Origin: Carcharhinus amblyrhynchos
Lineage: Eukaryota
Assembly: GCA_965287045.1 (NCBI GenBank)
Contig: OZ336874.1
Location: forward strand, 46,314,001-46,378,000
Length of the DNA: 64,000 nucleotides
Reading direction: 5' to 3'
Shown one piece after another: positions 4,063 through 60,672 of this stretch (the stretch's first letter is position 1; each line of letters opens with the position of its first letter). The translations under genes were made by a program, and so were the position numbers. The notes beneath the pieces are model-generated. The model saw only the letters and a program-made list of their open reading frames with translations, searched no databases and was not told where the DNA came from.

Positions 4063-4149
4063 TCAGTCAACTTGGTTATTGAATCAACATCCTTTGTCAT
4101 GCAGTATAAATTGTTTCCTTTGAAACTTGGCATTCCTGTGCAAGGCATC

Positions 4150-4575
4150 TTGCAGCAATACTTGCATTAATATAGCATTTCTCATGATCACTGGGTGTGT
4201 CAATATGCCTCACAGCCAAGGAAGTGCTTACATTTTGAGGTGTAGTTGCTATTGTAATGTAGGAAACGTGGCAACTAATTTGCGCTCAGCAAAACTCCCC
4301 AAAACAGCATTGCGATAATACCAGGTAATCTATTGTTTGTAATGTTGTTTGAGCAATAAATATTGGCCGGGTTTCTTGAGTGTTATGGGATTTTATGTCT
4401 ACCTGAGCAGGTGGCTGGGGCCTCCATTTAGTGGCATAGCCAAAAGACAGCACCTTTGACAGTGGAATGCTCACTTAGTTCACAGGAGTGTCAGTCTTTA
4501 TTTTTGTGCTCATGCCCTGGAGTAGTACTGAAACCAATCAACTTGTGATGGCAAAAATGCTATTGACCTAGCCAC
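4150..4575 (-). mobile_element. DeuSINE (SacSINE1-like) copy
   Basis: The reverse complement resembles the recalled Deu-domain SINE consensus (GAGCACAAAAA..GACACTCC..CACTGTC..GGTGC..GGCCAATATTTAT..GCGCAAATT..CGTTTCCTACATTACAA) with an L2-like tail. Confidence 0.75.
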
Positions 4576-4734
4576 AGCTGACACACAAAAGGCTCCTGAT
4601 GTATTTGCTATGATAAAGTGCAGTTAGAAGGCATGCTACTCCAGTGACTGGGTCCCCGACCCAAGAATGATCCCAAATTGGAAACATGCAGCCTAGAGAA
4701 TATGCAGGAACCAATCGTCAAACAGATTTTAAAG

Positions 4735-5010
4735 CACTTATGTAATGTATGTTGTCCAAAACACTTTACAGCCAATGAAATACTTTGGAAGCATTTGAAA
4801 GCAGCAGCCATTTTGCACAGCAAGTTCCCAACAAACAGTAGTGTTATAACAACCAGATAATGTGTTTTTTTTATTTGCAATGTTGATTGGTCAGGTTATG
4901 AAGAATGACTCCCCTGTTCTGTGAAATGGTGCCAGCTGAGCCAACAGATCTGACCTCGGTTAGTTCAATAGACAGCACCTCCAAAAATGCACACTCCCTC
5001 CAGCATTGGT
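4735..5010 (-). mobile_element. DeuSINE-like copy, more degraded
   Basis: Shares blocks with 4150-4575 (ACAGCCAA-GAA, AAACAG-A-TG--ATAA, GACAGCACCT). Confidence 0.65.
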
Positions 5011-6139
5011 CTTGGTTTGACTCCTAGACAAGGGTGCTCCCAACTTGAGACATGGACAAAACGCAACTGGCACAAACATTAATTTTTAAATGTGTGGGCG
5101 TAGACTGAGTGTTGGCTAGTGATGCCAGTATGGTAATCTATCTAAAGCCTGATCCTGTCCTCCCCCTATATAGGTGTGTATGCACATTCCAGCAGGGGTC
5201 ACTGACTTGTGACTAGGAGTGGGAGTAAATGGTCTTGGTGATGAATCGCAGTTGGCTTTGTTTGTCACTACCTTTTACCTTTGAAATCAATGGTTTTCCA
5301 AGATTGACTTGAGTGTTTCCTGGCTCTTTTTGAAAGATTGTATTGGTTCTCAGCAGAAAAGTTTTGATAATGAAGTTGTGCTTGCCAAACTGAGATGTTT
5401 GCGGCTAAATTGTCAAGATTTTCAACTTTGCTGTAACAAATTGTTCCATTGTCTCCGTCCCAGAGTAAGATTTAGGAGTTCTCCAACTACCACTTAATGA
5501 TTTTTTTAATGCTGTTAATCATTAGAGCAAGTTCAATTCTATGCAGGGTATTTTTTCTAAATCATGCGTTTAACCCCTCCTTACTTATTAAAGTGCTCAT
5601 TGTTGCAAAATTGATTGACCATTATATGGGTAGGTACATACAAAGAAAGCAATTTTTGTTTAAAAAGAACAATCAATTTTTCCCATTTTGTAACTGGAAG
5701 ACTGAAATTAAAGGTAGCTGCCCAAGCATCATGATCATGTAATGGAAACCTAAATGGGATAACTTCAATGTAGAAAATGAAGTAAAAATAAAGGTGATGC
5801 CACATCAGGAATAATATGAAGAAACAGGAGAATTCCATGGGTTAGAAGAAGTTTCTCTTTTAGACATCTGCCACTCACTCTTATTTATCTTTCACTCACT
5901 GTTGCTCTCTTACATATCTTATCTCATAGCCTCACCTCTTATCTATGTGGTTCACTCATTCTTGCTTAACCCCATTCTGGCTCTTTTTCACTTATAGCTC
6001 TTGGTGCTTGGAAAGGGTACGCCCTTCTCATTTCCTTGAATGTTCCTTTGCTAACTCTGTCTCAAGTATAATTAAAATGTGATTTTTGAAATTGTTATAC
6101 TTTTCCCTCTTCACTCTTTGTTTTCCTTTCTTTCTTTCC

Positions 6140-6420
6140 ATCCTAAGTAATCAACCCGAGACTGTGTCCCTGTGTTCTAGATTTCTCAGCCAGCAGAAGT
6201 GTTCTGTTTATCCGATCAAGTGAATGAATGTTTCAATTCGATCACCTTATATTCTACTGAACTTGAGAGTATAGGTTCAATTTACCCAGCTGCTCATGAT
6301 GGGACAAACCTCCCTATCTGAGGGACCAATCTAGTGAACCTTTACTTTAGCTGCCTCCAATACCACTATATTCTTCCATAAATATGAGGATCAACATTGA
6401 CACACAACACCCCTTTAAAA
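6140..6420 (-). mobile_element. Old CR1 fragment
   Basis: Reverse complement of the LERVQRRFTRL and 3' region (CAATCTAGTGAACCTT, TATTCTACTGAAC), heavily mutated. Confidence 0.6.
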
Positions 6421-7554
6421 TGTTTTTCTGTTTTTCCAGCCAATTGAATAACCTTGTTGCACACTCACTTAACCTATTGCTATCTCTTTGCAGTCTCTCT
6501 CTATCCTTCCATTTTCACTTAGCCATATGTCATCAGAAAACTTGGATGCATTACTCTGTCTTTGTTTAATGGCTTCAGAGAATGAAAGGGAACTATTATG
6601 TAAATTATAGCTGATTTGCCTTGGTACCCTGGGCAGCATTCTGTCCTTGACTGATATTACCGAAAACTGATTTACTGATCATTCATCCGGTGCAGCTTGT
6701 TGGGCCTCTGTTGACAATGTGAAGCTAAATGAGCAATAAGGGAGAAAGGAGTGGGAGGATAGATGCTTAGATGAGCATAAACACCGAGATCGACCAGTTG
6801 GGCTGCGTGGCTTGTTTCTGTGAAGTACTTCATTCCGAGGGTATTTGGAAATCGTTCTGTAACTTAGTATGATTTTTGTTGACCTCACTTGAACAATTGC
6901 TACTGTGACTGAAATAGAAAAATAGCTTAAATTATCAACATGAGAACTGGGTGGAGCCTATACCAAATGGGATTAATTTGTTTGAAAACATTAAATTTTG
7001 TTATATCATAATTAATATGCTTGTCAAGTATTTTACTTGCAAATGTTCTTTTGAAACCAAGTAAAATCCAAAATTTACATGTATCAAAACAACTTACAAA
7101 AATTCCAAACCTTTTTTAAGACCAGAATGTACCTGGTTAACTGTCTTGCCAAGTGCTTTTCTTTCTCTTCTTCCTGATCTCTCAAAAGAAGTTGTTTAAG
7201 AGATGGTGCCCATCTGCAGTATCAACTTTATGCACAATTCTGGGAGGCTTATCAATTAATGTTAGCAAGTTATCTCAGTCAACCTAAACCTGTAACCACC
7301 CAATGATCAGGTGCTGCCGAACACTGACTAGGAGTGGGAACTTGGGCACGTTTTTAAGAGGAAAACTTAATGTTGCCATCCTCGCAATGTTGGGGCTAAT
7401 TTGAATGCACTATTCCTAAGAGATGCTGCAGCACTTCAAGGAGGGCTTTGCAGGGTCAATGGAGCTTGGTTTGCTGTTGTGATTTCTGATTCCTTGGTCA
7501 GTAGCTCCGTTCAGTTTGGTTCCTTTGGAACTTTGTAGCATTTTGATACGAATA

Positions 7555-7840
7555 GTTTGCTAGGCTATTTCTGACGATAGTTGAGAGTCAACTACATTGC
7601 TGTGGGTCTGGAGTCGCATATAGCTCAGACCAGGTAAGGATGGCAGATTTTCTTCTCTAAAGAACAGTAGAGGGCCAGATAGATATCTTTTACAGCAATC
7701 AACAATGTTTTCATGTTCATCATTACTGAGGCAATCTTTTAATTCCAATATTATTAATAGAATTTAAATTCCACCAGCTGTATTGGTGGGATATGGACTC
7801 TTGTCCCCAGAACATTAGCCTGGATCTCTGGATTACTGGT
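7555..7840 (-). mobile_element. tRNA-derived shark SINE ('family B')
   Basis: GAGAGTCAAC..CATTGCTGTGGGTCTGGAGTCGCAT..AGACCAGGTAAGGATGGCAGATTT..AAATTCCACC..CCCCAGAACATTAGC. Homologous to 37348-37700, 44890-45290 and 53795-54042. Confidence 0.8.
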
Positions 7841-8502
7841 TTGCTTAAAGTTTCATTTGAAGTTGTACCGTTCAGGAACACAATCACAGTGTTCAGGGAG
7901 AGCTTATTGTGCGTATGTTTTGAAGGAGTTTAGTTTTTAATTATTAATTTGCTAAGAAACTGGATTCAGTAGAACAATAGAGCTAGTAAATGGCTCGGTA
8001 GAGTTTTTAAACATTGTTATTGATTTCAAATTAGTTTAATGTTGAAATATAAACACTTCAATGAGAAAATGTTTTATACATAATGAAACTGCACCAGGGT
8101 TACTATTCAATAATATTTTTTGATGGGAAGAAATATCAATTATTCTTTTCTGTCCGCTTCTCATGGTTCATGAAGGATTTTGTATTTGTGATAATACAAA
8201 TGATTTTGGCAGAAACTTGAACCATAACTTTGCTTCAGAAAAGCACTGCAAATTTGCACACACAGTTTGACAATTCTGCCCAAAGTGGAAACTCTAGACC
8301 ATAGTTTGAGTCTTGATTGCCAAAATAGTTGGAGTTGGGGAGAAGGAAACACTCTCTTTCAAAATTGTTAGTAAAAAAGAGCAACTTAAGAAATGCGTGG
8401 AAACTTCATTTCATTAGTTTTCATAGCAAAGGCCAAATACCTTCGCTCTTTCACTAAATACCATTAAAGTGAAATGCCTATGGCTGAATCTGAGAAACAT
8501 AC

Positions 8503-8640
8503 TGGCTGGAACTCCACCACCTTGCCTGCTGTGGAATCTGTCACGGGCGAGGGTCCAACAACAGAAATGTCCGTTGACCTCAGGCAGGAATTTCTGCTCT
8601 TACCTGAGCGAACCATATCTCCCACTCAGAGTCAGTGGAA
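8503..8640. mobile_element. MITE-like element, same family as 11452-11580
   Basis: GGCTGGAA start, GGAAT..CGGG.GAGGG, CCGTTG.CCTC.GGCAGGA.TTT shared with 11452-11580. Confidence 0.55.
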
Positions 8641-11414
8641 CCTTTACAAATGCAGCGAGGGTTTTACATCTCTTCCCACGTTGAGAATTTGGCATGTTGC
8701 ACTGCTGCAAAGATTGATGCTTTGCATTTAAGGTGTCCAAGCTGCCTTTGAACTGGTTTGGAAGTAAAGATTAATGAGGCAGAGTGCCTTTTATATTGCC
8801 ACTGTTTATTCCTCCTGATATGGATTAATCTTATCTCTGTTTTTGAAAACTGCTTTAGCTCAAACTGCTAGGGTTACCAGGTAAAGAGCATTTAGAAAAT
8901 TCCTATCCAATTTCTTATTGCTACTTCCATGCAGCTTTGTTCAAACTGCGAATTGAACCAAGTGAGGCACTGGGCTTTTGACTTTCCTCTTCCATGATGT
9001 TCTGTGTTCGCGCTTAACTTACTGTGCCATCTTTCTCCATGGAATTCTGGTTTAATTGTTACAGAATTTGCCTGAGAACATATTGTTTCTGAAACGAAGA
9101 ATAAAAGTCACTTCGTTACAGTAACACCAAAGCTTCCACTTATGGTGCAGATTGCCGGGGACTTCATTACAATATGATATGATTGCTGTTAGATTGTTCA
9201 CTTGTCTCAACCCCTACATTTTGAATATATGACCTCTATGTCCTCTGATGTGCAAGCTTATCTGATCCAGTCTAATGTTTGACAGAATCATATGAACTTC
9301 AGAAACAAAACATTTCTGTATCAAACCAGAATGTTTTGTGATCAGTCTTATGAAAACTTGTGCATCTTCATTAAATCTGTGGTTAACCTGTCAACATGTT
9401 TAAAATTAGATGTCAGTTAATCTATTTGCCGGATTAAAGATTCTGGTTATGATGCAAAAAAAACAGGAGAAGTTGAAAGCTTTGTTTCTGAGGCTTTTAC
9501 TGCATCAATGAAATTCTGCAACACAATGAGAAAAGGGAATGTTCTTGATGTAGTCATGTTCACTTGATTGTGCTAATGTTGGAGAAATAATTGCATATCA
9601 CAAAGACTCAGTGCTGTGTATCACAGGTTAATAAAACAGATACATTCAAGTTCTATGAAGTGGCTGTCACATTTAGCAAGTCAATGATTTCCCACAACCA
9701 CACCAAGTTACAAACAGTAATTCAATATGCTTGAGTACTTTTGAAATATTAAATGTGATTTTTAATTAATAGATGAAATAGGCCAGAAAGGTGTGAATAA
9801 AGTAGGAATGTTTGCCTATTTATTCTAGCTTTCTCCACCAATTAGCTGATCAGCTTTATTTTTAATCATGGTTTTTGTGCTCCAACCAATTTTCATCTCC
9901 CGAAAACGCAGAACAGGTAGTTCAGAATTGCTTACTCTCATGTGAAAGAGTTGACCGTTGACGTGAGAATTTAAGCTTCAACATTATAAGATTATGTCAC
10001 TTCTGAATTGTTTGGTTTAATTTGGGAAAGTGAATTTATTTTTATATGCAATGCAAGTTCTAAAAAAATAAGTGGATGCACAACTTGTTCTCCAGAAAAA
10101 TGGCATATAATTACATTTGGCACCCCAGAAAGAGACACATGTTTGCTTTTAAAAAAGTGTGCAACTTGAGAGATGCAGGTTCACCCAGTCCTAAACTTAT
10201 TTTGCAGCCTCAAACAGTGTCTTAGCCACACTTCTTCTGAGCTATCCTGTTCATAGTGGTTTGGTTCTGCTGACAGAACAGTTGTACTGCAAATGTGTCC
10301 TCACCTATCACCTAGGATGCATAAGCTCCTTATTGCAATCAATTGAGCAGGCCTAAGCCTATTATACATTGATGAACATCATGTAGATGATGGGTCCATT
10401 TAGGTAATATTGCCCACCAGTCGACCCACTTGCATTGACCATTAAACATCACTAAACTGTTGTGTCTTTCCTCTGTATTAGTCCTGACGTCTCATCAGGT
10501 ACAAGCAAGTTCACACAAGTATGTTGAGAAATGATGAATAAGTTGATCCATGAAAGTGGTCACCTATTTTCTAGATAGTTCTGGTGTCCTGGAATTGGCT
10601 GTATGTCATTCTCAGTTTTGAGCCATGTTAAGGCTTGATTCCCTCAATTTTTAGGACCAGACTATTTTGAGACCTCAAGTTCACCTGTCTCGCTCAGTGT
10701 CGTATTTTGATGGCTTTTTGTTCCCATCACATTTCTTATTGCAGTATGCAATGAAGGTCATCCAAGTGAACATGCCAACAGAGGTGAATGGGATAATTTA
10801 TCATCACTCTCTATCTCGCTACAGGTGATGGTACACTGTTAAGAACCAACCTGGGCCAGATAAAAAGGAACAGAATATGAATAGCAAGCCTGTTTCTCCC
10901 AATAACCCTGCCTGTGAGTCATGCTGGCTGAGCGACTGGCGACAGGCTACCTCAGATGATTAATTAAAATGATTGAACTTGCAGAACTGAGCATTCAGGT
11001 TACAGCTGCAGTTGTTCCTTACAGGTTTGTGCTGGGCTTGTGAATACATTTCATTTTGTTTTTAAGATACTTAACGCCCATTTGAAACTGGGTTAATGAA
11101 ATCAAAGGGTTTTGGTAACATTCTAAATCAGAAAAATTTACATGTGTTCTAAAGCAGAAGGTTACTATTTTGTGCCACAGGACAAAGAGTTGCGTATACA
11201 ATCGTCATTTGTTTGTGAAGTTCCCATCAAGGATGAATCATTTTCATTAAAACAAAATGACTAGTTTAGTAACACACAGCCATTTAGCATAGTTTTTTTT
11301 TTGCTGTGTGTGTTTAGTGTTTGTGTGTGAGCCAGATGTGGAAATTTAAACCAGCTATAATAAAACCCGAAAACTTTGTACCTTTTTGTGGCTCTGCACT
11401 TGGTAGAATTGTAA

Positions 11415-12410
11415 AAATGTTACATCACACACAGGAGGCCATTTGACCCATCGGCTGGAATTGTACCATCCCACTTGCCATGGGAATTGGAGCGGGTGAG
11501 GGATGGATCATGGAAAGGCCCGTTGCCCTCGGGCAGGATTTTATGGTTTTGGGATGAGCGATGCTGTAAAAATCCCGCCCGTTGTCTCTGTTGGTTTTCT
11601 GCAAGCACATCTCCCATTCCCCTAGCAATTCTCCATGTCTATAAATTTCTGCTCTTTAGATAGTTATCCAATTTTTGATTTGAAGCTGCCTCCACCACGC
11701 GCTTAGGCAGTGTGTTCCAGATCCCAACCACTCACTACATAAAAATATAAAAATTCTTCCTCCTGTCGCCAGTGGTCCTTTTGCCAATCACCTGAACTTG
11801 GGATCATCTAGTGCTTGATACTTCCACCAGTGGGAATAGTTCTCTGTCTAGTCCCTTCATTTACCCTCAACCTTCTCTTCTCCATGGAGATGAAGCTCAG
11901 CTTTTCCAATCTATCCATGTAATTGAGTTTCTCATCTGTGGAACCTTTCTTATGAAACTTTCCACACCCTCGCTAATGCCTTCACAGCATTGAAGTTCGA
12001 TGCCCAACATTGGACACAACACTCCAGTGGAGGTTGAACCAGTGTTTTATATAGGTTTATCATAACTTCCTTACTTTGGTACACTATGGCCCTATGAAGC
12101 CCAGAACCCTGTATGCTTTATTAAACGTGCTTTCAACCTGTCCTGCCACCATAAATGGCTTGTGCACGTATGCTCTTGGGTCCTCTGCTAAGGTACCTCA
12201 ATGTATTATACTTTTTTTAAATTTTTTTTAATTGCCTGAATGAATCACTTCACATTTCTCTCTTTAAATTTCTTCTGTCGCTTGCCTCACCATTTCACTA
12301 TCTATCCTATCTATTTTCTTCTGAGGTTTATCAGTATCCCCCTCTCATTTCAAAATGCTTTTGTGTCATCTATAAATTTTGAGATTGTGTTCTGTGCACC
12401 CAAGTCTATT
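11415..12410 (-). mobile_element. Old CR1 LINE 3' region, interrupted by a MITE
   Basis: Reverse-complement CR1 landmarks: GGAGGCCATT..CCCATC tail, GCCTCCACCAC, TTCCAGATCCCAACCACT, GGACACAAC..CCAG, TTTGTGTCATCT. Confidence 0.7.
11452..11580. mobile_element. MITE with imperfect ~15-bp TIRs (possibly PIF/Harbinger-like)
   Basis: Left end GGCTGGAATTGTAC; right end GTAAAAATCCCGCCC (reverse complement GGGCGGGATTTTTAC). It interrupts the CR1 tail. Confidence 0.6.
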
Positions 12411-12423
12411 TTTATCTGCTTTA

Positions 12424-12750
12424 GTACAAAGAATAAAGTACAGCAGAGGAACAGGCCCTCTGGCCCTCCAAGCCTGCGTCGATCATGATTTCTCCCTAAA
12501 CTAAAACCGTATGCAATTATGGAGTCCGTATCCTTCCATTCCTGTCCTATTTGTGTATTTGTCTAATTTCCCCTTAAATGCTGCTATCAGACCTGTTCCC
12601 ACTACCTCCCCTGGCATTGTATGTTCCAGATGTTCACCACCCTCTGTGTTTCAAAAAAAATCTCGCCTCGCACATCTCCTCCTCCTCTAAACTTTTTTCT
12701 CCACGCACCTTAAACCTATATTCCCTAGTACTTGACTTTCCTACCCCACA
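12424..12750 (-). mobile_element. CR1 3' UTR fragment
   Basis: ACAAAGAATAAAGTACAGCAGAGGAACAGGCCCTCTGGCCCTCCAAGCCTGC; same family as 751 and 33862. Confidence 0.85.
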
Positions 12751-12818
12751 ATGCAGAGTGGGGTACAAAAACCTTGTAAACTTGTAGTTTGGCACTTTTA
12801 CATTAAGTACTAACTTAG

Positions 12819-13073
<255 letters not shown>

Positions 13074-13237
13074 TAATTAAATCAATAAAATACTTTCTTT
13101 CGATCAAAAAGTATAAATCAAACATCCAGGTGACATTGATATTAATTTTCAACAATTGAACTATAATGGGAAGTTTATTAATTTAATGATTTAACCTATT
13201 TTATTTGATTAAATTGATTTTTTTTTCATTTCTTGAG

Positions 13238-13348
13238 GAACACAATGCACTCATGATTGACGAAACGAATGACATCCGGATTATAGGAACCATTACGATT
13301 GTTGTCCTGTTTGGCATATCTGTTGCAGGGATGGAATGGGAAGCTAAG
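13238..13348 (+). CDS. slc12a2: NKCC1 coding exon (exon 6 equivalent, 111 bp, TM4)
   Basis: gag|GAACAC...GCTAAG|gtagga; [37 protein letters not shown]; phase 0-0, in frame with its neighbours. Confidence 0.96.
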
Positions 13349-14032
13349 GTAGGAATCTGCAGCATACTTTCACAAAGAATACTGAAAGGTGCATGCAACA
13401 CTCTAACTAAAAGCTTTGGCTGAGAGTTAACAGTTGCAATACCAACACCATAAAGTTTATACATTCTGTTTTAAATCCATGTTTTGGTGGGGTAGGGGAG
13501 GACCAAAAAGCTGCTTGGGATTTGTTCTTTAAATCCGGGAAGAATAATCAAGAACGTCAATGGTGAACCCAGGCATCTTTGAAAATAGTGGGATGGGAGA
13601 CATAGCAACACTTGGCTACTGCCTTAATGTTGAATGGAGAAAAAGACAACTCTGATCTTGGCACAAGAAGGGAAATATCTGAGTATTGACTTTTAATATC
13701 CCAACATAAATTAGACATTTGTAAATTATGTGGTCCCCTTGTGAAAATAAATACTAATTTTTCCATGAATTGGAGTTTTACATGTGTGTATTTGCATGTT
13801 TCAATTTGAGCTTTCTAGCTTACATTATGGGAGACTGCAGATTGGAGTACATTTTGAGGCCTACTCCCGTGGGCAGGTCCCTTTCAGTGAGCAAGGATGC
13901 TACTCTTTCCTACGCCACACTGATGTAATTCAATGGGCCTGCCGTTTGCACAGGATCTTGTGCAATATATCCCATGATCTTTACAGAATAACAATTATAA
14001 TTTAAACATTTCCTTTTTTTATTTCATTGCAG

Positions 14033-14141
14033 GCTCAAATTGTGCTCTTGGGAATTCTGCTGATATCCATAGTTAACTTCACCGTGGGAACTTTCATCCC
14101 AGCCAATGACAAACGGGCAAAAGGATTTTTTAATTACCAAA
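14033..14141 (+). CDS. slc12a2: NKCC1 coding exon (exon 7 equivalent, 109 bp, TM5)
   Basis: cag|GCTCAA...TACCAAA|gtatgt; [36 protein letters not shown]. Not in the ORF track; read manually. Confidence 0.96.
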
Positions 14142-16244
14142 GTATGTGAAAAATACAATAACATTTTGAATTGGGAATGGTTTTACTTTGGAACCTGCCT
14201 TCATTTAGTTCTGATAGCATGTAGACAATGCACATGTCTAGCCTTGTTATTGGAACAGCTGAATGAGGTCGGAGTTTGAAACTCTTACTTAGGGTTATGA
14301 ACCTGATGGAATATTATGGCTTCTGTGTCTAACTTCCATACCTACCTTCCTTGCAAACTTACTCCACTTTCCTTGAAGGTGTTGGTTTCTTGGAATGTAG
14401 TGTCATGCATGACCTTGTTCAAGTAGCATTTATATAAATGTCTTAATTGATTGTTGGTATAGCATCTAATGTGGAAAACACCAGATAAGACAGCACACCT
14501 AAAGTTGAACTAGGCTTCTCTAAATAACAGCTGCAGGGGTAGTTCAAAAGCAATCAGGAGCAGAGTACTGTTTTCTTTTCTCCCTAATCCAAAGCTGCTG
14601 CCATCAATGTCAATGCAATTAACCCATAAATGACTAACTCGCACAGTATAGAATGCAGATTGAACCTCACTAATCCATATGGTTTGAATACTATCTGTGC
14701 AAATCTGCTGAGTGATTGGAATAAACTGTCTTTTTAACCTCCAAATGTAATTGTCCTTTACTTTCAAAAGTAATTGTCTTTGACACTGCAGCTTCTTATT
14801 TATATAATTTGTTGATGTGCAACGTAACATTATTATTGTCTAATAATTCCTCCCAAGTCTTTGGTAATTTCCTTTCTGTGGATTTAAATAGTTGAAAGAA
14901 TCTAATGCGTTTGAGATTCCTGTTTATTGAGTTAATGGAGTTGTCTACGCATTTGTTTCCAATTCTCTTAAGGTTCAATGTTGTGACTCACCAACCCCCA
15001 GGTTTGTTTGACTAATTAGTGCTGTTGTTGTGCTGCCTTCTCTCTTCTTCCCCACCACCCTCCCTCCCTTATCCCCTGGACTAGTAATGTCAGTTTAGAC
15101 TCTTCTTGGCTTCTCCTTTCTTCTCTCCCAACCACCATTCATTGCAGTTTGTAATTATTACCTTCATGCAGCTCACACTTCATTTTAGGTGAGGTCATAT
15201 ACTGCAGAACTGCCTTGACAGGATAAGATTCTTATGACACCCTGGCTTTGCATGACTAATGCTTTTTAAAAGAAGCCTGGTAAATGTGTTCTTCTAGAGC
15301 ATGTTCTTACTGTACAGCTGCTTGGAAGGAAAAGACAGGCCTGTACCATGAGCTTTAGAAGTAGTTCAATGTCAGCCATGTAAGGCACACACCTGTCACT
15401 CCAGCTCCAATGAATGTGGATGGTTTAGTGTCAAGTTGTTGGACAGAGTACAGTTCAGGTTGTGTATCACTTTGGGAGAAGATAGTGAGCAAATCCAAAA
15501 AATTCCATTTGAATGAGGAAGTATTTATTTTTGTCTTCCTTCTTTCTCCACGTTGTTAATGTTGAAATTATACCGCAATAGAGTTCATGCTTTAAGTTGA
15601 TGATTAAGAGCAGCCGTCCCCAGTTGTCGTTAAGTTCGGGCTTCATTAGAAGAGTATATTTTAAAAAAAAGTATTCCCACAGGATGTTAGAGTGAATTGA
15701 AGGAGTCTGTGTCTTTACTGTGCAGGCTTGGAAATAAATCAGTCTTGAGGTGCAGACTGGCTTCAGATTCATTCTTTATTTAACATACTGAGATTGGATT
15801 TATCTTGCATAGCTGCATTTTCTTTCCTCTTTCCTGTTTATTCCTGAGGATACTACCCCTTTCACACAGTATTTGAAACATATTCAAGGTGACCTTTTGC
15901 CTGTATACAAAGACCTTCTTGAGATCACATCCTCGATTTTTTTTTTTTTTCTTGTCTGATTTTGCATTTATTTTGGCCAATTCTCTAGCAATTCAAATTT
16001 TTTGCCAGTCAGAAACCACTTAGTGTTCAGTTCATCCAGTCAGTGTCCAAGTGATGGTTTCCTGGACCCGAAACTGCTAGAAGTGGTATTTTCATATTAA
16101 TTTCACTCAGTTGATAGGGAGAAAACATTAATTTCAATGTAAATAACTGGTGTCATTATTGGAGGATAGAGGTTGCTAAAACTACCTGATACAGCACCCC
16201 CTCTCTGATTTTTTTTTTCATCTATGTGCTGTACTTTAGTAATA

Positions 16245-19157: not shown

Positions 19158-19370
19158 CCATGATGTGGAGATACTGACATTGGACTGGGGTGGGCACAGT
19201 AAGAAGTCTCTTAATACCAGGTGAAAATCCAACAAGTTTATTTGGAATCATGAGCTTTCAGAGTGCTGCTCCTTCATCATCAGGTGAGTGATGAAGGAGC
19301 AGCACTCCAAAAGCTCATGATGCCAAATAAACCTGTTGGACTTTCATTTGGTGTTGTGAGACTTCTTACA
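19158..19370. mobile_element. Penelope-like palindromic (inverted pseudo-LTR) element with a 13-bp TSD
   Basis: Imperfect palindrome 19199-19369 centred near 19284, flanked by TTATCAAAGGTGT (19145-19157) and TTATCAAAGCTGT (19371-19383). Carries a TGATGAAGGAGCAGCACTC-GAAAGCT core. Confidence 0.75.
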
Positions 19371-20201
19371 TTATCAAAGCTGTGACAGTGAGTGTGGAGA
19401 ACTATGCACATCCTTTTCTCACAGAAGGAAATTTACCTTTGACACTGGTGCGCGTCCAGCGTGAAATGGTTGTTCAAGGAATAGCAACTGCATTGTTGCG
19501 ACATGATCTTAAGATTTGCATCTTTAGAATTGTCTCCATTGCTCATTTGTATTTTTACTTCCAATCACGCTTCAACATTGTCCAGTCCTTTTCTCTATGA
19601 CTTAATGACACTGGTGTTCTGGGCACTTGAATACAGCTCATGTTGGGTGCATGCCAATATGGTTCTGCTAAATGCAGTCAACTGCTGAGAATTTGTCAGG
19701 GCAAAGTCCGTACACGTAGCTGAGTAATGACAAGTTGCTCTGGGGACTTGACACATAATTATTTCCAAATGGAGACCCTTGCTCCTTTGCCCTTGGCTGA
19801 TTTTGTCCTATTTGTTCCAGGGGAAAAATAAGGAAGGCTGTAGTACTAATGAGCTTAGTTAACTTGTATTGCAATGTGGTGTGTCAAAGTTTTGGATAAA
19901 ATCAATCCCTTATATTGCTTCTTAAGCCTTTTACATTTCAGCAGACCTAATGATATGACAGATGTTCTTGCAGCCCAGACCCCTCCACAGATTATTGTGT
20001 GTTGAGGACATGATGCAAGAATAAACCCACATAGGTAGACCCAACTTAATGTGTATGAGACATTTAGAATATTGTGCATATGATGATAACAATGAACATC
20101 GAAACCAGGGAATTTCTGATCCTTAAATTATATTGAAAAACTACATTTATTGGCATGGTGGCTTAAATTGGAAATAGTTTGGGAAAATTTTTTTGTTGTA
20201 A

Positions 20202-25179: not shown

Positions 25180-26362
25180 CATGAACACTGCAATGAGGCT
25201 ACTGTGAAAATCCCCTAGTTGCCATACTCCAGTGCCTGCTCAGGTACACAGAGAGAATTTAGCATGGCCAATGCATCTGGCCAGCACGTCTTTGCACTGT
25301 GGAAGGAAACTGGAGCGTCCAGAGGAAACCCATGCAGACGTGGGGAGAATGTGCAAACTCCACACAGAACATAAGAACATAAGAAATAGGAGCAGGAGTA
25401 GGCCATCCAGCCCTTCGAGCCTGCTCCGCCATTCAATAAGATCATGGCTGATCTGTCGCGGCTCAGTTCCACCTTCCCGCCCTCTCCCCATAACCCTCAA
25501 TCCCCCCTCTTATCAAAAACCCATCAACCCGCGTCTTAAAAATATTTAGCGAGGCAGCCTCCACCACTTCAACGGGCAGAGAATTCCAGAGATTCACCAC
25601 CCTTTGAGTGAAGAAGTTCCTCCTCAACTCCGTTCTAAACCGCCCCCCCTTTATCTTGAGGCTGTGCCCCCTAGTCCTACTGTCCTTTCTGAGCGGGAAG
25701 AGTCTCTCCACCTCTATCCTATCCATCCCATTCATCATCTTATATGTCTCAATGAGATCTCCCCTCATTCTTCTAAACTCTAACGAGTACAAGCCTAGTT
25801 TATTCAGCCTCTCCTCATAGCTCAACCCCCTCAACTCCGGTATCAGCCTAGTAAACCTCCTCTGCACTCCCTCCAAGGCCAAAATATCTTTGCACAGGTA
25901 CGGCGCTCAAAACTGCACACAGTACTCCAGCTGCGGCCTCACCAATGCCCTATACAGCTGCAGCAAGACCTCCCTACTTTTATATTCAATCCCCCTCGCT
26001 ATGAAGGCCAGCATCCCATTCGCCTTCCTGACCACCTGCTGCACCTGCAAGCTGGGTTTTTGTGACTCGTGCACAAGGACCCCGAGATCCCTCTGCATCG
26101 TCGCCTGCTGCAGTTTTTTGCCCCGTAAGTAATAGTCCTTCCTACCATTATTCCTACCAAAGTGGACCACCTCACACTTGCCAACATTAAATTCCATTTG
26201 CCATTTCCTGGCCCATTCGCCCAGCCTATCTAGATCCTTCTGCAGACTCTCCACACCCTCCGCACAATTTGCCGTTCCCCCAATCTTGGTGTCAGACAGT
26301 GGCCCAAGCCAGGAATGGAACCTGGGTCCCTGGCACTGAGAGGCAGCAGTGCCAACCATTGC
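25180..26362 (-). mobile_element. V-SINE (HE1-like), split in two by a CR1 insertion
   Basis: 25250-25368 is the reverse complement of the V-domain (GTGTGGAGTTTGCACATTCTCCCC..GGGTTTCCTC..). 26293-26362 is the tRNA-like head (GCACTGCTGCCTC..CCAGGGACCCAGGTTC). Confidence 0.85.
25366..26294 (-). mobile_element. Young CR1 (subfamily Y), 5'-truncated, (TTCTTATG)n tail
   Basis: ORFs 25907..26374 and 25463..25882; near-identical to 48454-49372. Confidence 0.95.
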
Positions 26363-28035: not shown

Positions 28036-28190
28036 GTTCCTGTATTGTGCGTGATGCTACTGGGAATCTTACTGATGCTATCCTCCCTGGAACAGTGGTA
28101 AACTGCACAAATGCAGCCTGTAAACTGGGCTTCAATTTCTCCTCCTGTGCCACAAATACATGTTTGTATGGTCTAATGAATGACTTCCAG
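28036..28190 (+). CDS. slc12a2: NKCC1 coding exon (exon 10 equivalent, 155 bp, glycosylated extracellular loop TM7-TM8)
   Basis: cag|GTTCCT...TTCCAG|gtgagg; (G)[51 protein letters not shown]. Confidence 0.97.
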
Positions 28191-33023: not shown

Positions 33024-33467
33024 TGAGAGGCTGAATAAACTAGGCTTGTACTCGTTAGAATTTAGAAGAATGAGGGGCGATCTCATTGAGACGTATAAGA
33101 TGATGAATGGGATGGATAGGATAGAGGTGGAGAGGCTCTTCCCACTCAAAGGACAGTAGGACTAGAGGGCACAGCCTCAAGATTAAGGGGGGGTGGTTTA
33201 GAACGGAGTTGAGGAGGAACTTCTTCACTCGAAGGGTGGTGAATCTCTGGAATTCTCTGCCCGTTGAAGTGGTGGAGGCTGCCTCGCTAAATATATTTAA
33301 GACGCGGGTTGATAGGTTTTTGATAGGCAAGGGGATTAAGGGTTATGGGGAGAGGGCAGGAATGTGGAACTGAGCCACGACAGATCAGCCATGATCTTAT
33401 TGAATGGCGGGGCAGGCTCAAAGGGCTCGGTGGCCTCCTACTGCTCCTATTTCTTATGTTCTTATGT
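33024..33467 (+). mobile_element. Young CR1 (subfamily Y) 3' fragment
   Basis: GAGAGGCTGAATAAACTAGGCTTGTAC...GAGCCACGACAGATCAGCC...TTCTTATGTTCTTATG; matches 48935-49372. Confidence 0.93.
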
Positions 33468-45290: not shown

Positions 45291-46334
45291 TATCTTGCAA
45301 TAATGAAACAGCTGTAACTGTAGCTGAAGAATACGTATCCTTAAAATAAATTTCTAATCTAATTATCCATGAACAAAAGGCAAAGCTATTTGAATAAGGG
45401 CTAAGTAATGCTGAAAAGTTCAAGGTTTTTTTATTGAAAATACGTAAGACAATAAATAATTGGAATACTTAGTTTAATTCCAGTACAATGAACCCCTCAA
45501 ATTCTTTAAAGAATGCTTGCATTATTCTCCAGGTTTAAAAAAGTCGATGCTGAATAATAAGTGATAAATATTGAAGTTTCAAATAATGGGTGTTTGTTTT
45601 CTCAGTCATAAGACTTGCAAGGGGTTATCTAGATAAAAGCAGGCATTCATATCATGCCATTATGCCAAATTTTAATTTGACATTGATATGACATTGTTAA
45701 ACTGTGATGTGCCAGTCAGATTTGTCTAGCTGTTGAAAACCTTCAAGTACAGTTGCCTGTTGTTTCAGAGATTTGCTATTAAAGGAGGCAATAATGATCC
45801 AATGTTAACCCGGTCACACTCTGTCGATTAAGCTGGTGTAATAATTTTCAGTGTGAATTCTGCCATGCTTTGTGCCTTTTTTTTAAAAAATGTGGTATGT
45901 GATTTTCTGGATTAAAAACAATTTTATCTTTTTCTTAAATGTTTTAAGTAAGAAACTGGGTCCCTAGAAATTTTATCTGGGTGGTGGAAGAATGTGCAGT
46001 GCAACTACAGCAAGTGATGGCACATTCCACTCTTACTCTTCCTATTGTAATGTATCTGGGTGCTTTAATGGATTCAGCGTTCAACACATCCAATCATTAT
46101 GAAGCAGCGAAGGCAATACACTGTTAAAATACATAAGTTAATAAACATGCTCAAACTGTACAGCACTCGAGTGACATTGCTCTTTGAGTAGTGTTATGGT
46201 TTCCAGAAAACTAGAAAGGCATGTGAAACTGGTTGGAGTACAAAGAGGAGGAATTATAAGGTTGATCCTTAGCCTCAGGTATCTGAGGAATGAGGAAAAA
46301 GTTGGATTTCAATTTGAGGAAGTAAACTACTTAT

Positions 46335-49300
46335 TAGGTGACATTACGGGGTCTAAAGTTAAGGAGAGGGTACAGGTAAGGGAAGAGGCTGAGGATGTCC
46401 CAATAATAAAGGGAGAAGGGGGCGTGAGTATGGTTGGTGGCGTTCTGGCAAATAGGGTCCAGGTGAAGGCTGGGATGAAGGCACTTTATCTGAATGCACG
46501 AAGCATTTGGAATAAAGTGGATGAGCTGGTGGCGCAGATCAGCATAAATGGATATGATCTGGTGGCCATTACAGAGACGTGGCTGCAGGGTGACAGGGAC
46601 TGGGAGCTGAATGTCCAGGGGTATCAAGTGTTTAGGAAGGATAGGCGGGAGGAAAAAGGGGGGGGCGTAGCTCTGCTGATTAAGGATAGCATCAGGGTGG
46701 TAGCAAGGGATGATATAGGAACCAAAGAGCAGAAAGTGGAATCGTTGTGGGTGGAGATTAGGAACAGCAAAGGGAGGAAGACGCTGGTGGGTGTCGTCTA
46801 TAGGCCCCCAAATAATGATCTGGAGGTGGGGCGGGCTGTTAACGCTCAAATAAGTGCGGCGTGCAGGAATGGGACGGCGATAATTATGGGGGATTTCAAT
46901 CTACATGTTGATTGGTCGACCCATGTTGGACGCGGGGGGCTCGAGGAAGAGTTCTTGGAATGCTGCCGGGATAGTTTCCTTGAACAGTGTGTGTTGGAGC
47001 TGACGAGGGAGTGAGCTATCTTGGATCTGGTGTTATGTAATGAGGCGGGTAGAATTAGGGACCTTGTGGTGAAGGATCCTCTTGGGGAGAGTGATCATTG
47101 TATGGTGGAGTTTCTGGTGCAGATGGAGGAAGAGAAAGTGGGTTCCCGGACACGCGTCCTTTGTTTGAACAGAGGGGAGTACGGTAGGATGAGAGAAGAA
47201 TTGGCGAATGTTGACTGGGGGAGCGCGTTGGAAGGTAGGTCTGCTGAGGAGCAGTGGAGGATCTTTAAGGAGACCTTTCTTGGTGCTCAGCAGAAATTTA
47301 TTCCGATGGTTAAAAAGGACCGTAGGAGGAGATGTAATAAGCCGTGGATAACGAAGGAGGTGAAGGAAAGTGTTCAATTAAAAGCGGAGGCGTTTAGAGT
47401 AGCTAAGAGTAGTGGGCGAGAAGAGGATTGGGAGAGGTTTAAATGTCAACAAAGATTGACAAAGAAGTTGATAAAGAAGGGTAGGATAAACTATGAAGCT
47501 GGGCTAGCGCTTAATATAAAAAGGGATAGCAAGAGTTTTTATAAATATATAAAAAGGAAGAGGCTGGCTAGGGTGAACGTTGGTCCCTTAGAGGTTGAGA
47601 GGGGGGACTTAGTGGTAGGGGATGGGGAAATGGCTGAGGCCTTGAATAACTTTTTTGTTTCGGTCTTCACGGAGGAGGACGTGAATAATTTGCCGGGTGT
47701 TAGCGATGGAAAGATGGTAGGACAGGAGGGTCTCAATGACATATTGTTACTAGAGAGGTGGTGCTCAACAAACTGGAGGGACTGATTGTGGACAAGTTCC
47801 CAGGACCGGATGGAATGCATTCAAGGGTTCTGAAAGAAATGGCGGAGGTGATAGTGGATGCCTTGGTGGTTATTTTCCAAACGTCGCTGGATTCCGGGGA
47901 AGTGCCCGAAGATTGGAAAACGGCTAATGTTACGCTGTTGTTTAAGAAGGGTGGCAGGCAAAAGGCAGGGAATTATAGGCCGGTTAGTTTAACGTCTGTT
48001 GTAGGAAAAATGTTAGAATCCGTCATCAAGGAGGAAATAGCAAGGCACCTTGAGGGGAATTGCTTGATAGAGCAGACGCAGCACGGTTTCGTTAAGGGGA
48101 AGTCGTGTCTGACAAATTTATTGGAGTTCTATGAGGATGTGTCTAGGGTGGTGGATAGAGGAGAGCCGGTGGATGTGGTCTTTCTAGATTTTCAGAAGGC
48201 GGTTGACAAGGTACCTCACAAGAGGTTATTGCAGAAGGTAAGGGGGCATGGAGTTGGGGGTAGGGTGTTAGCGTGGATAGAGGATTAGCTGTCAAATAGG
48301 AGGCAGAGAGTGGGGGTCAATGGGTGCTATTTGGATTGGTGGTTGGTGACTAGTGGAGTGCCCCAGGGGTCGGTGCTGGGGCCTCAGCTACTTACCATTT
48401 ATATGGATGATCTGGAGGAGGGAACCGAGTGTAGGGTGTCGAAATTTGCTGATGACACCAAGATTGGTGGAACAGCAAATTGCGCGGAGGGTGTGGAGAG
48501 TCTGCAGAAGGACCTAGATAGGCTGGGCGAATGGGCCAGGAACTGGCAAATGGAATTTAATGTTGGCAAGTGCGAGGTGGTCCACTTTGGTAGGAATAAT
48601 GGTAGGAAGGACTATTACTTACGGGGCAAAAAACTGCAGCAGGCGACGGTGCAGAGGGACCTCGGGGTCCTTGTGCATGAGTCACAAAAACCCAGCCTGC
48701 AGGTCCAGCAGGTGGTCAGGAAGGCTAATGGGATGCTGGCCTTCATAGCGAGGGGGATTGAATATAAAAGTAGGGAGGTCTTGCTGCAGCTGTATAGGGC
48801 ACTGGTGAGGCCGCAGCTGGAGTAGTGTGTGCAGTTTTGGTCGCCGCACTTACGCAAGGATATTTTGGCCTTGGAGGGAGTGCAGAGGAGGTTTACTAGG
48901 CTGATGCCGGAGTTGAGGGGGTTGAGCTATGAGGAGAGGCTGAATAAACTAGGCTTGTATTTGTTAGAGTTTAGAAGAATGAGGGGAGATCTCATTGAGA
49001 CATATAAGATGATGAATGGGATGGATAGGATAGAGGTGGAGAGACTCTTCCCACTCAGAAAGGACAGTAGGACTAGGGGGCACAGCCTCAAGATAAAGGG
49101 GGGGCGCGGTTTAGAACGGAGTTGAGGAGGAACTTCTTCACTCAAAGGGTGGTGAATCTCTGGAATTCTCTGCCTGTTGAAGTGGTGGAGGCTGCCTCGC
49201 TAAATATTTTTAAGATGCGGGTTGATGGGTTTTTGATAAGCGAGGGGATTAAGGGTTATGGGGAGAGGGTGGGAAAGTGGAACTGAGCCACGACAGATCA

Positions 49301-49372
49301 GCCATGATCTTATTGAATGGTGGGGCAGGCTCAAAGGGCTAGATGGCCTACTCCTGCTCCTATGTTCTTATG
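46335..49372 (+). mobile_element. Young CR1 (subfamily Y) with full-length but pseudogenised ORF2
   Basis: MKALYLNARSI..AITETW..YRPP..GDFN..SDH..DKFPGPDG..NYRPVSL..GVPQGS..KFADD across ORFs 46184-49125. Stops at 47012, 48286 and 48823 and frameshifts near 47750 and 49100. The 5' boundary is approximate. Confidence 0.96.
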
Positions 49373-55663: not shown

Positions 55664-55955
55664 TATAAGAACATAATAAATAGGAGCAGGAGTAGGCCAT
55701 CTAGCCCTTTGAGCCTGCCCCGCCATTCAATAAGATCATGGCTGATCTGTCGAGGCTCAGTTCCACATTCCCGCCCTCTCCCCATAATCCTTAATCCCCT
55801 CTCTTATCAAAAACCCATCAACCTGTGTCTTAAAAATATTTAGCGAGGTAGCCTCCACCGCTTCAACGGGCAGAGAATTCTAGAGATTCACCACCCTTTG
55901 AGTGAAGAAGTTCTTCCTCAACTCCGTTCTGAACCCCTCCCCCCCTTTTATCTTG
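55664..55955 (-). mobile_element. Young CR1 (subfamily Y) 3' UTR fragment
   Basis: Near-identical to 25380-25660 (GGAGCAGGAGTAGGCCATC..CTCAGTTCCAC..TTATCAAAAACCCATCAACC). Confidence 0.92.
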
Positions 55956-56055
55956 CCTTGGCGAACATGAAGGCCAAAGCCATGCCCCATTTTATGCTTG
56001 AAATCAACTTGAATCCAAAGAAGAAGTAATACCAATCAGAGATTTAGTTGCAAAA

Positions 56056-56751
56056 GTTACTAGTTATAGTAACTAATGCAGTTAATGGAAGAAAACACTG
56101 AGAATTGTGGTAGTTACCGGGGGTGGGTGGGGGGTGCTCTACCCAACATTGGCTACATTTAGGAGGTGGCGTGGTTGTAACAAATCTTCCACTATTCGTG
56201 GGTTTAAATGTTAATGCACTTGTATCTCATTCTCTATTCCACTAATGTTATTGAAGCAAAAGTGTATTTGTTAATTGTTTATTTGAAGTCCAAAAATATT
56301 TGCTTGCACATTCAGTGATCAGGCCAAATATGAAGGAGCTAATTTGTACTGAAGGGCTCTATAGATTTATTATAACTATTTAATACGAAGAATTCTGCTT
56401 CACATTAACTTTGATTAACTTGAAAATTCTTCCTGTAATTTTTTAAAAAAATTGCTACATGAAACTTGCATAAATTGTAATAAATATAAAGTACCTTCAA
56501 CATTTTTGAATGTTCTGAGAATTCTAAATGTACAAAAGGGGAATTTGGTTTTAGAAGTGCTAACAAAGATCACTAAGGGGTAAGCCAATGAATGCTTCAG
56601 ATGCACAGTGCTTTATGTCAGATTTGTTACAACCACGCCACCTCCTAAATGTAGCCAATGTTGGGTAGAGCACCCCCCACCCACCCCCGGTAATTACCAC
56701 AATTCTCAGTGTTTTCTTCCATTAACTGCATTAGTTACTATAACTAGTAAC
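56056..56751. repeat. 132-bp near-perfect inverted repeat around a 432-bp spacer
   Basis: 56056-56187 is the reverse complement of 56620-56751; I found one mismatch by eye (GGTAGTTACC vs GGTAATTACC). Confidence 0.95.
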
Positions 56752-57989
56752 ATAAAGAAGTTTAATTGTAATTGAAGATTGTAAGAAGTCATAGTGGCCA
56801 GGGATTTTGGCACACGTTTCAAGCTGTGGCCGGTCTGATCATGTACAGTACTATGTATCTTGAAATAGCACAATTGAAAATGAAGGCTGTGAGTTTCTAT
56901 TTCACTTTCAATGTTTTATTTTTGGAGGAGTTGGTGGGGCACAAGTTCTTCCAAATGATTGCACAATATCACTGGTACCAAAGAGCAGGCAGTGGAGTAG
57001 TTTATTTCTCACTAAAGAATAACTTTAGTGCTAATGCCTAAATTTAGATACCCACATTAGAATGTACACACCGACCATCCTTTCTATTTCCAAGGCAGTT
57101 GCTTAGGAGGCTGTAGTATTCTGGCATCTTCTGGCCCTTTACTGCAGCCTGTTTCACAATGTTACAGCATTGTTGGTGGCTGTAAAGCTATGTCACAGAA
57201 TCTTTCCAGGCTGATGCAAGGAAAATAAGCCTCTCAAGTTGGTTTGCAATGCATCACTGCGCTAGTAACAAATTGCTGTTCGTTTTGTTTTCCACGAACC
57301 AGCAAAAATCGAGCTTATGCAGTTAGCTTTCAGAATGTCTTAATTTCCCTGGAATCAATGAAGTAACGGTTTTATACGAGGACCGAGTGAAAAGATGTGA
57401 ACCGAAAGAGATTTAAATCGCTCGCTGGACAGCTGGTGTGTGATGCCAGCCACATTATTCTTCTTGTTAAGTGCACGCTAACTGGGGAAGCTGTCACAAT
57501 GCTTTTGTACTTCATTGACCTGGAGATTATTCAGCTGGAAGTTTGTTTGGTGACCAGGGAAACGGTCTATGATCATGGCTGATGACTCCACTTTGTGTTA
57601 TATAAAATCAGGCACAATGAAATATTTGGTGCAATAAAAATGCTCATTAAATGAACCATTGGGATACTGAAGCTTCAAGCGCCTGGATGTGACCATGGGA
57701 AGTGCTGTGGTACAGCCTTAAAAGGCTTCGACATCTAGGAAGACATCCTACCCTTTCAGAAGTGTTCCGTCCTTGTATGTAAAGGGCCTCGGGTTCAGCA
57801 ACAGGAAAATGTTCCAAATGAATAAGTGATGGCACTGCTTTCCATTGCCATTACTTTCCACGATGCTTTTTCTGGCACTTTGTTGGGCTTGAATTCTCCA
57901 CCCACAATGCTTCTATCTCATATTTCTTCTGGAAGAATCTTTGCAGATATAGTATATCTCTGGAAATATTACAAATATTCTTGGGCCTT

Positions 57990-60564: not shown

Positions 60565-60672
60565 GTCATGAGCCTGGTGTCTGGATTTGGGCCTTTAATT
60601 ACTGCAGGAATCTTTTCAGCTACACTTTCTTCTGCCCTGGCCTCATTAGTGAGTGCTCCCAAGATATTCCAG
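60565..60672 (+). CDS. slc12a2: NKCC1 coding exon (exon 11 equivalent, 108 bp, TM8)
   Basis: cag|GTCATG...TTCCAG|gtaagt; [36 protein letters not shown]. Confidence 0.97.

What the first reader, a model, noticed from the sequence alone, without database searches (positions are those of the whole stretch)
56056..56751. Unexplained 132-bp near-perfect inverted repeat in NKCC1 intron 10
Seen: the arms 56056-56187 and 56620-56751 are reverse complements with one mismatch, making this the youngest-looking duplication in the window. They enclose 432 bp of ordinary AT-rich DNA and match no repeat family I recognise here. Each arm has internal structure. The right arm is bounded by TGTTAC (56625) and GTAACA (56747-56752), like miniature LTR ends. 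The outer end folds into GTTACTA-GTTA-TAGTAAC, and a G5-T-G3-T-G6 tract lies inside. No TSD is evident at the outer flanks. Inference: this could be an undescribed foldback or MITE element with long TIRs, two inverted insertions of a novel short element, or a template-switch inverted duplication. In the pre-mRNA it would form a ~132-bp duplex (a possible ADAR or Dicer substrate), and it could mediate inversion of the spacer.
Basis: partly seen in the sequence, partly recalled or inferred. Interest (0 to 1): 0.7.

Follow-up and report, generated by a model that had tools for sequence, protein, structure and literature searches.

The report
Inverted copy scar in NKCC1 intron
A 126-base piece of ordinary intron DNA in a shark salt-transporter gene is repeated backwards 432 bases downstream, where two related species have only 6 bases, so it is likely a one-off DNA-copying or repair scar of a well-known kind and not a jumping gene.

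Summary
The inverted repeat is real: 132 bp, 131 of 132 complementary, 432-bp spacer. Arm and spacer occur only here in the genome; a real multi-copy hairpin element from the same window gave 3,952 candidates. An independent contig set collapses both arms into one 132-nt contig at about double depth, so an assembly artefact is unlikely. Two related species (2 of 2 laid) carry the left arm in place but have 6 nt instead of 56622-56747. The right arm is therefore most likely a derived inverted copy, joined through 2-nt and 4-nt microhomologies, with no target-site duplication. This matches the known 3-2-1-4 template switch or local 'inverted duplication' class. A 1-Mb genome sample held 1-3 comparable pairs, and this scan has noted the same kind of scar elsewhere. 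MITE, foldback and paired-SINE readings fail. Small curiosities, all post hoc: both ends of the copied tract sit at older quasi-palindromes, and 3 of 3 later arm changes keep RNA pairing (p about 0.05). No RNA data were available. Ordinary; low interest.

The parts
56056..56187 (+). Left arm: the original single-copy intron DNA that served as template (copied part 56060-56185)
   Evidence: In run X5 (organism A) one contig runs from 55957 through the arm and spacer to 56621; in X6 (organism B) it is covered at 55956-56101 and 56162 onward. Single locus in G000.
56188..56619 (.). Spacer: ordinary AT-rich intron DNA, older than the repeat, same orientation as in relatives
   Evidence: 1 match in the genome; collinear in X5 and X6 contigs.
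56622..56747 (-). Inserted tract: 126-nt reverse-complement copy of 56060-56185, standing in place of 6 older bases
   Evidence: Joint 56621 to 56748 with 6 other letters in X5 and X6 (tables 5 and 5c); equals the reverse complement of the template at 125 of 126 positions.
56620..56621 (+). 2-nt junction microhomology (AG; complement of 56186-56187)
   Evidence: Present in the relatives that lack the insertion.
56748..56751 (+). 4-nt junction microhomology (TAAC; complement of 56056-56059)
   Evidence: Present in the relatives that lack the insertion.
56055..56074 (.). Perfect 8-bp-stem DNA hairpin at the outer end of the template, extendable to 56049-56080
   Evidence: z = -4.2, 0 of 200 shuffles. 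Both arms carry it, so it was intact when copied; relatives A and B each have different changes in it.
56040..56053 (.). Imperfect 14-nt inverted match to the template's inner end (56175-56187), older than the duplication
   Evidence: 12 of 14 columns match; reached by 0.35% of 20,000 random segments (post hoc); not part of the minimum-energy DNA fold; no differences listed there for X5 or X6.
56119..56134 (+). G5-T-G3-T-G6 tract (G-quadruplex-prone), native to the template
   Evidence: G4Hunter-type score 2.08, reached by 2.2% of 5,000 random 132-mers; covered without listed change in X5.
28036..28190 (+). Upstream coding exon of the host NKCC1-like gene, 27.9 kb from the repeat
   Evidence: Matches human SLC12A2 residues 542-591, E 5e-15; splice sites read.
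60565..60672 (+). Downstream coding exon (VMSLVSG...KIFQ), 3.8 kb from the repeat
   Evidence: Reading frame; acceptor read; end position inferred from the frame.

Best explanation
The right arm is a 126-nt backwards copy of intron DNA 432 bp upstream that stands where two related species have 6 bases, and it likely arose in one germ-line template-switch event during replication or break repair. Inferred steps: a DNA 3' end at about 56621 paired by 2 nt with sequence at 56186-56187, copied 126 nt of the opposite strand, came off at the 8-bp hairpin at 56055-56074, and rejoined its own DNA through 4 nt (TAAC) with loss of 6 nt. The mirror route, starting from the 4-nt end, gives the same product and cannot be told apart. 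In four-point notation this is a 3-2-1-4 (mirror 1-4-3-2) event. It is older than the split from sample S2 (about 1% diverged). The arms have since taken separate point changes. It is probably neutral: the arms enclose no exon and lie 3.8 kb from the nearest splice site.
For: Shown: arm and spacer are single-locus (2 hits, 1 hit, and three unrelated 2-mismatch 20-mers that do not extend), against 3,952 candidates for a true repeat used as control. The left arm is in place and the right arm is absent in 2 of 2 relatives laid, with the same 6 nt in both. The ends of the missing tract fall 2 and 4 nt inside the arm ends, as an insertion with microhomology predicts and a random deletion does not. 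No TSD. The pattern matches published definitions: type 3-2-1-4 creates an inverted repeat (PMC5453318, passages); most human 'inversions' (54%) are inverted duplications, nearly all <1 kb and within 5 kb of the other copy, not typically retrotransposition (PMC4617611, passages); MMB-TI is an inverted insertion near its template flanked by microhomologies, found as germline variants (PMC8421209, passages). Base rate: 3 low-copy pairs of 65-84 bp in 100 stretches of 10 kb, one confirmed as two-copy genome-wide.
Against: Polarity rests on two relatives whose branching order is unknown; they may be one clade, and organisms C-F were not examined. A 2-nt microhomology is no more than chance. The tract is near the top of the short-range class (median 12, maximum 128 nt in great apes, PMC7954356), and its 432-bp distance is beyond the 100-bp window of the MMBSearch tool. 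The enzyme and pathway (replicative switch, MMBIR, polymerase theta) cannot be read from the sequence. Only contigs were available, no raw or long reads. In X4 the left flank and outer left arm are uncovered. The hairpin at the tract end was not seen in 3 of 3 background pairs (0 of 12 ends), so it is not a general rule.
Confidence: 0.9

Rival explanations
1. The repeat is ancestral, and one arm was deleted in the lineage leading to organisms A and B.
For: A and B share 4 differences from the window and X4 (56206, 56387, 56815, 56902), so they could be one clade. Long inverted repeats are deletion-prone (general knowledge).
Against: The deletion would have to remove 126 of 132 nt of exactly one arm, ending 2 and 4 nt from the arm ends. 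B is further from the window (24 substitutions, 5 indels) than A is (17, 1), which weakly places B outside. Even if true, the repeat would still be a local inverted duplication, only older.
Confidence: 0.04
2. A MITE or foldback DNA transposon with 132-bp terminal inverted repeats, or two insertions of a rare short element.
For: Arm-spacer-arm layout; a terminal hairpin; the inserted tract ends in CTAG before T, which superficially recalls a Helitron 3' end (motif recalled).
Against: Single locus; no TSD; left arm and spacer are present without the right arm in relatives; 6 nt are lost at the site; no Rfam match at E <= 1. The genome DNA search skips very common words, but it did find the control repeat.
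Confidence: 0.02
3. Assembly or fold-back read artefact.
For: No long read spanning the whole stretch was seen; Logan contigs break at the repeat.
Against: X1 contigs break exactly at the arm boundaries, with one 132-nt contig at depth 25.6 against 12-16 in flanks and spacer. X1 differs from the window at 3 spacer sites, so it is at least another haplotype. X4, another sample, has the right arm joined to the right flank and both inner junctions. X1 may be the sample the window came from.
Confidence: 0.01
4. It began as a template-switch scar but is now a selected pre-mRNA duplex (editing substrate or small-RNA source) that tunes NKCC1 expression.
For: Stable predicted 132-bp stem. All 3 of 3 post-duplication arm changes seen (56113 in the window; 56179 and 56679 in X4) are A to G on the sense strand and would leave G-U pairs, against 11 of 29 polarised changes outside the duplicated arms; p about 0.055. 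Template switching can create miRNA hairpins (PMC10710096 / 10.1101/2023.04.19.537475, search listing only).
Against: Three sites, post hoc, not significant; the partner of 56679 is not covered in X4. The arms keep changing at about the flank rate. A 432-nt loop is unlike a pri-miRNA. The same intron holds two other inverted repeat pairs of about 290 bp at 91-93%. It is far from splice sites, encloses no exon, and is absent from two close relatives.
Confidence: 0.03

Closest known systems
Four-point template switch, type 3-2-1-4 / 1-4-3-2 (Loytynoja and Goldman 2017, PMC5453318; Walker et al. 2021, PMC7954356)
   Same: Reverse-complement copy of nearby sequence, a single new inverted repeat with an uninverted spacer, a few bases lost between switch points 1 and 4, AT-rich surroundings.
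   Different: The tract (126 nt) is at the upper edge of their range (median 12, maximum 128), and the template is 432 bp away rather than tens of bases.
Local 'inverted duplication' structural variants of the 1000 Genomes Project (Sudmant et al. 2015, PMC4617611)
   Same: Duplicated stretch <1 kb inserted in inverted orientation within 5 kb of the other copy, no sign of retrotransposition.
   Different: Described as human polymorphisms; this one is shared between two samples about 1% apart in a shark.
MMB-TI, templated insertions linked to microhomology-mediated break-induced replication (PMC8421209)
   Same: Insertion near and inverted to its template, microhomology at both junctions, replacement of a few bases, germline.
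   Different: That study searched only templates within 100 bp; the pathway cannot be proven here.
SD-MMEJ / polymerase-theta templated insertions (PMC5728401, abstract) and class 2 TSIPs (PMC5110952, abstract)
   Same: Break repair with a templated patch and no TSD; hairpins steer the outcome in SD-MMEJ.
   Different: SD-MMEJ structures lie within about 30 nt of the break and synthesis is limited; class 2 TSIP templates are distant, not local.
MITEs and foldback DNA transposons (features recalled)
   Same: Arm-spacer-arm outline only.
   Different: No copies, no TSD, and arm and spacer did not arrive together.

Membership tests
Local template-switch inverted duplication (3-2-1-4) | Inserted tract is a reverse-complement copy of nearby sequence | tested here: met
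   125 of 126 nt match 56060-56185.
Local template-switch inverted duplication (3-2-1-4) | A pre-event state exists with template present and copy absent | tested here: met
   2 of 2 relatives laid; direction inferred from breakpoint positions, root not fixed.
Local template-switch inverted duplication (3-2-1-4) | Spacer keeps its orientation; little sequence lost between switch points | tested here: met
   Collinear spacer, 6 nt replaced.
Local template-switch inverted duplication (3-2-1-4) | Junction microhomology, no TSD or poly(A) | tested here: met
   2 nt and 4 nt; no TSD; no A-tail in the sequence. The 2-nt match is chance-level.
MMBIR or polymerase-theta pathway specifically | Dependence on the pathway's enzymes | not testable with these tools
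   A historical germ-line event; sequence alone does not name the polymerase.
MITE / foldback transposon | Dispersed copies | tested here: not met
   positive control.
MITE / foldback transposon | Target-site duplication | tested here: not met
MITE / foldback transposon | Empty site lacks both arms and spacer | tested here: not met
   Relatives keep the left arm and spacer.
Solo LTR / mini-LTR | TG...CA ends belong to the inserted unit, flanked by a 4-6 bp TSD | tested here: not met
   The terminal TAACA is older flank, TGTTAC is internal, no TSD.
Catalogued Dfam/Repbase element | Full-length match to a library entry | not testable with these tools
   No such library on hand; single-copy status makes a match unlikely.
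Known structured RNA (Rfam) | Covariance-model match | tested here: not met
   0 matches at E <= 1 in 55900-57300.
ADAR or Dicer substrate | A-to-I clusters or about 22-nt reads on the arms | not testable with these tools
   No RNA run among the 22 listed.

The most novel reading that the evidence does not exclude
The copied tract was delimited at both ends by older secondary structure in the template (an 8-bp hairpin at one end, a 14-nt quasi-palindrome at the other), and the resulting 132-bp pre-mRNA duplex has since been kept paired by selection (3 of 3 later changes are G-U compatible): a regulatory dsRNA born in one step in the shark salt-secretion transporter gene.
Probability: 0.03. Interest if true: 0.5.

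Novelty: new member of a known kind. Interest (0 to 1): 0.12.

Why it matters
It is a clean, base-resolved example of a known mutational process in a shark, with the likely pre-event state visible in relatives. It could serve as a phylogenetic marker for the clade that carries it. It would matter more only if RNA data showed editing or small RNAs from the stem, or if a genome-wide survey showed that such tracts end at template hairpins more often than chance, which would say how the switching polymerase is released.

Tried and rejected
No RNA holder was listed among 22 runs; this says nothing about expression. Only 4 of the 22 runs were laid; organisms C-F were not examined, which leaves the root of the comparison open. 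Whether the arms are identical in X1 (gene conversion) cannot be told, because a popped bubble gives the same single contig. Spacer inversion cannot be read from contigs that collapse the arms. The three 2-mismatch hits of a 20-mer (L006-L008) do not extend beyond about 20 nt. A symmetric-TIR pattern for the 56040-56187 segment gave 0 matches, but the pattern does not match this locus either, so it is uninformative. A DNA fold of 56030-56200 did not form the 14-nt outer stem. Hairpins at tract ends: 0 of 12 ends in the three background pairs; quasi-palindrome scores there were 3-5 against 9 here. Helitron/Helentron reading rejected: single copy, 6 nt lost, hairpin placement does not fit (features recalled). 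One paper search for dispersed inverted duplications returned a single irrelevant paper. I ran no search for this locus in print, so I make no claim that it is unpublished. No supplements were read.

Full report
Observation. The repeat is as described. Arms 56056-56187 and 56620-56751 pair at 131 of 132 positions (mismatch 56113 G / 56694 T) around a 432-bp spacer of 30% GC. As RNA it folds into one 132-bp stem, z = -29 against 20 shuffles. It lies in a 32.4-kb intron (28191-60564) of an NKCC-type gene on the + strand, 27.9 kb from the upstream exon and 3.8 kb from the downstream one. Two exons match human SLC12A2 best. Of three paralogous hits in the genome I tested the next-best one, and it scores lower against human NKCC1 (54.9 vs 63.1 bits). 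NKCC1 is therefore likely; the intron number is recalled, not tested.

Copy number. In the own genome the arm has 2 matches (the two arms), the spacer 1, and an internal 20-mer with up to 2 mismatches 5, of which 3 are unrelated and do not extend. Arm, spacer and both flanks hit nothing else in 1 Mb of sampled genome plus the window. As a control, a hairpin-shaped repeat from the same window (19190-19380) gave 3,952 candidates with the same tool. No TSD flanks the whole, either arm, or the inserted tract. Rfam gives 0 matches at E <= 1.

Other samples and relatives. Of 22 runs listed, 4 were laid, all as contigs. X1 (4 listed differences; it may be the source sample) has a contig of exactly 132 nt on the arm at depth 25.6, against 12-16 for flanks and spacer, with contigs overlapping it at all four ends. 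That is what a collapsed two-copy repeat looks like. X4 (11 differences over about 1,150 bp, about 1%) has the right arm continuous with the right flank and both inner junctions; its left flank and outer left arm are uncovered, which I put down to graph simplification beside a high-copy LINE (inference). X5 (organism A; 17 substitutions, 1 indel) and X6 (organism B; 24 substitutions, 5 indels) both carry the left arm in place and both join 56621 to 56748 with the same 6 other letters. In A one contig runs from the left flank through arm and spacer across that joint. So the left arm is native intron DNA, the spacer keeps its orientation, and only 56622-56747 differs.

Direction. The 126-nt tract equals the reverse complement of 56060-56185 at 125 positions. 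The 2 nt before it (AG) and the 4 nt after it (TAAC) are present in the relatives and also match the template flanks. An insertion with microhomology produces this automatically. A deletion would need both breakpoints within 4 nt of the ends of one arm by chance. A and B share 4 differences from the window and X4 and could be one clade, though distances weakly put B outside. Organisms C-F were not examined, so direction is inferred, strongly but from two relatives. At 56113, A has the base that matches the right arm, so the one mismatch is a later change in the left arm. X4 has its own changes at 56179 and 56679. The arms have thus drifted separately, with no sign of homogenisation in these few sites.

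Mechanism. Most likely one germ-line template switch: a 3' end paired by 2 nt 432 bp upstream on the opposite strand (or folded back on the nascent strand), copied 126 nt, was released, and rejoined through 4 nt with loss of 6 nt. The mirror route cannot be excluded. The product and junctions are shown; the route and enzyme are inferred. The tract's outer end coincides with a perfect 8-bp hairpin (56055-56074; z = -4.2), and only 0.18% of sampled positions lie within 2 nt of the 5' end of such a hairpin. Its inner end coincides with an older 14-nt quasi-palindrome partner at 56040-56053 (0.35% of random segments). Both tests are post hoc and uncorrected, neither feature appears in the three background pairs, and the second stem is not in the predicted DNA fold. 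A hairpin-assisted release or entry is plausible but unproven. The G-tract scores 2.08 (2.2% of random 132-mers); a role is speculative.

How common. In 100 stretches of 10 kb (94 at round-number positions on the ten largest contigs, 6 beside the window), 25 inverted matches of at least 40 nt, at least 90% identity and within 5 kb were found: 4 spacer-less palindromes, 18 pairs of dispersed repeats (17-82 other loci each) and 3 low-copy pairs. These are L102 (81 bp, 96%, 475-bp spacer; 2 matches genome-wide), L029 (84 bp, 99%, inside an older repeat) and L098 (65 bp, 94%, beside a LINE tail, so less certain). Their direction was not tested. Scaled up, this is about 2,900 (95% interval 74-16,000) for 1 per Mb or 8,800 (1,800-25,600) for 3 per Mb.

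Comparison with what is known. PMC5453318 (passages): type 3-2-1-4 and its mirror create an inverted repeat and were 31% of high-confidence human-chimp events. PMC7954356 (sections 8 and 10 and passages): copied tracts have median 12 and maximum 128 nt; these types are the majority and can be intra- or inter-strand; ancestral structure is slightly raised at switch point 1. PMC4617611 (passages): 54% of characterised inversions were inverted duplications, nearly all <1 kb and within 5 kb of the other copy. PMC8421209 (passages): inverted insertions near their template with flanking microhomology occur as germline variants. PMC5728401 and PMC5110952 were seen as abstracts only. Earlier scan notes describe the same kind of scar in this genome and others; they are unchecked, came after my reading was set, and are not counted as support.

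Function. The duplex would form in pre-mRNA and could be edited, but no RNA run was available. The arms enclose no exon, and the intron already holds two other inverted pairs of about 290 bp at 91-93%. One weak hint for selection: 3 of 3 post-duplication arm changes are A to G on the sense strand and would leave G-U pairs, against 11 of 29 polarised changes elsewhere (my tally of the 35 rows, 3 unpolarised rows dropped; p about 0.055). This is not significant, and the partner of 56679 is uncovered in X4.

Verdict. Real, explained and ordinary: a new member of a known kind. Confidence 0.9; interest 0.12.

Noticed in passing
window 19199-19369: Hairpin-shaped repeat (81-nt arms, 88% complementary, 9-nt loop) with 3,952 genome candidates and best copies 80-89% identical. 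A real multi-copy palindromic element; its end resembles repeats seen in L012, L041, L044, L064, L072 and L080. Family not identified.
   Followed up: partly
window 25641-26294 / 48453-49106 and 25369-25688 / 33148-33467: Young inverted LINE pairs (654 nt at 96%; 320 nt at 94%) bracket the 155-nt exon at 28036-28190. These are better candidates than the focal repeat for exon looping or circRNA; skipping this exon would shift the frame.
   Followed up: no
window about 46175-49370: Near-full CR1-like LINE with endonuclease and reverse-transcriptase reading frames broken by a few stops, in the same intron (family label from recalled motifs).
   Followed up: no
L102:3418-3498 / 3974-4054 (G000:C9:40003418-40004054): A second single-locus inverted duplication of the same layout: 81 bp, 96%, 475-bp spacer, 2 matches genome-wide.
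   Followed up: partly
L029:3649-3732 / 4856-4939 and L098:1697-1761 / 4275-4339: Two further low-copy local inverted pairs (99% and 94%); the first lies in an older repeat, the second abuts a LINE tail.
   Followed up: partly
L041:5495-7631 and L011:237-310: A 2.1-kb near-perfect palindrome (99%) made of repeat DNA, and a 74-nt palindrome with no other hit in the sample.
   Followed up: no
window 56055-56074: The 20-nt hairpin carries three changes in the two relatives (56068 in A; 56061 and a 3-nt loss at 56064 in B), more than the 1.4-2% background suggests: a possible small mutation hotspot.
   Followed up: no
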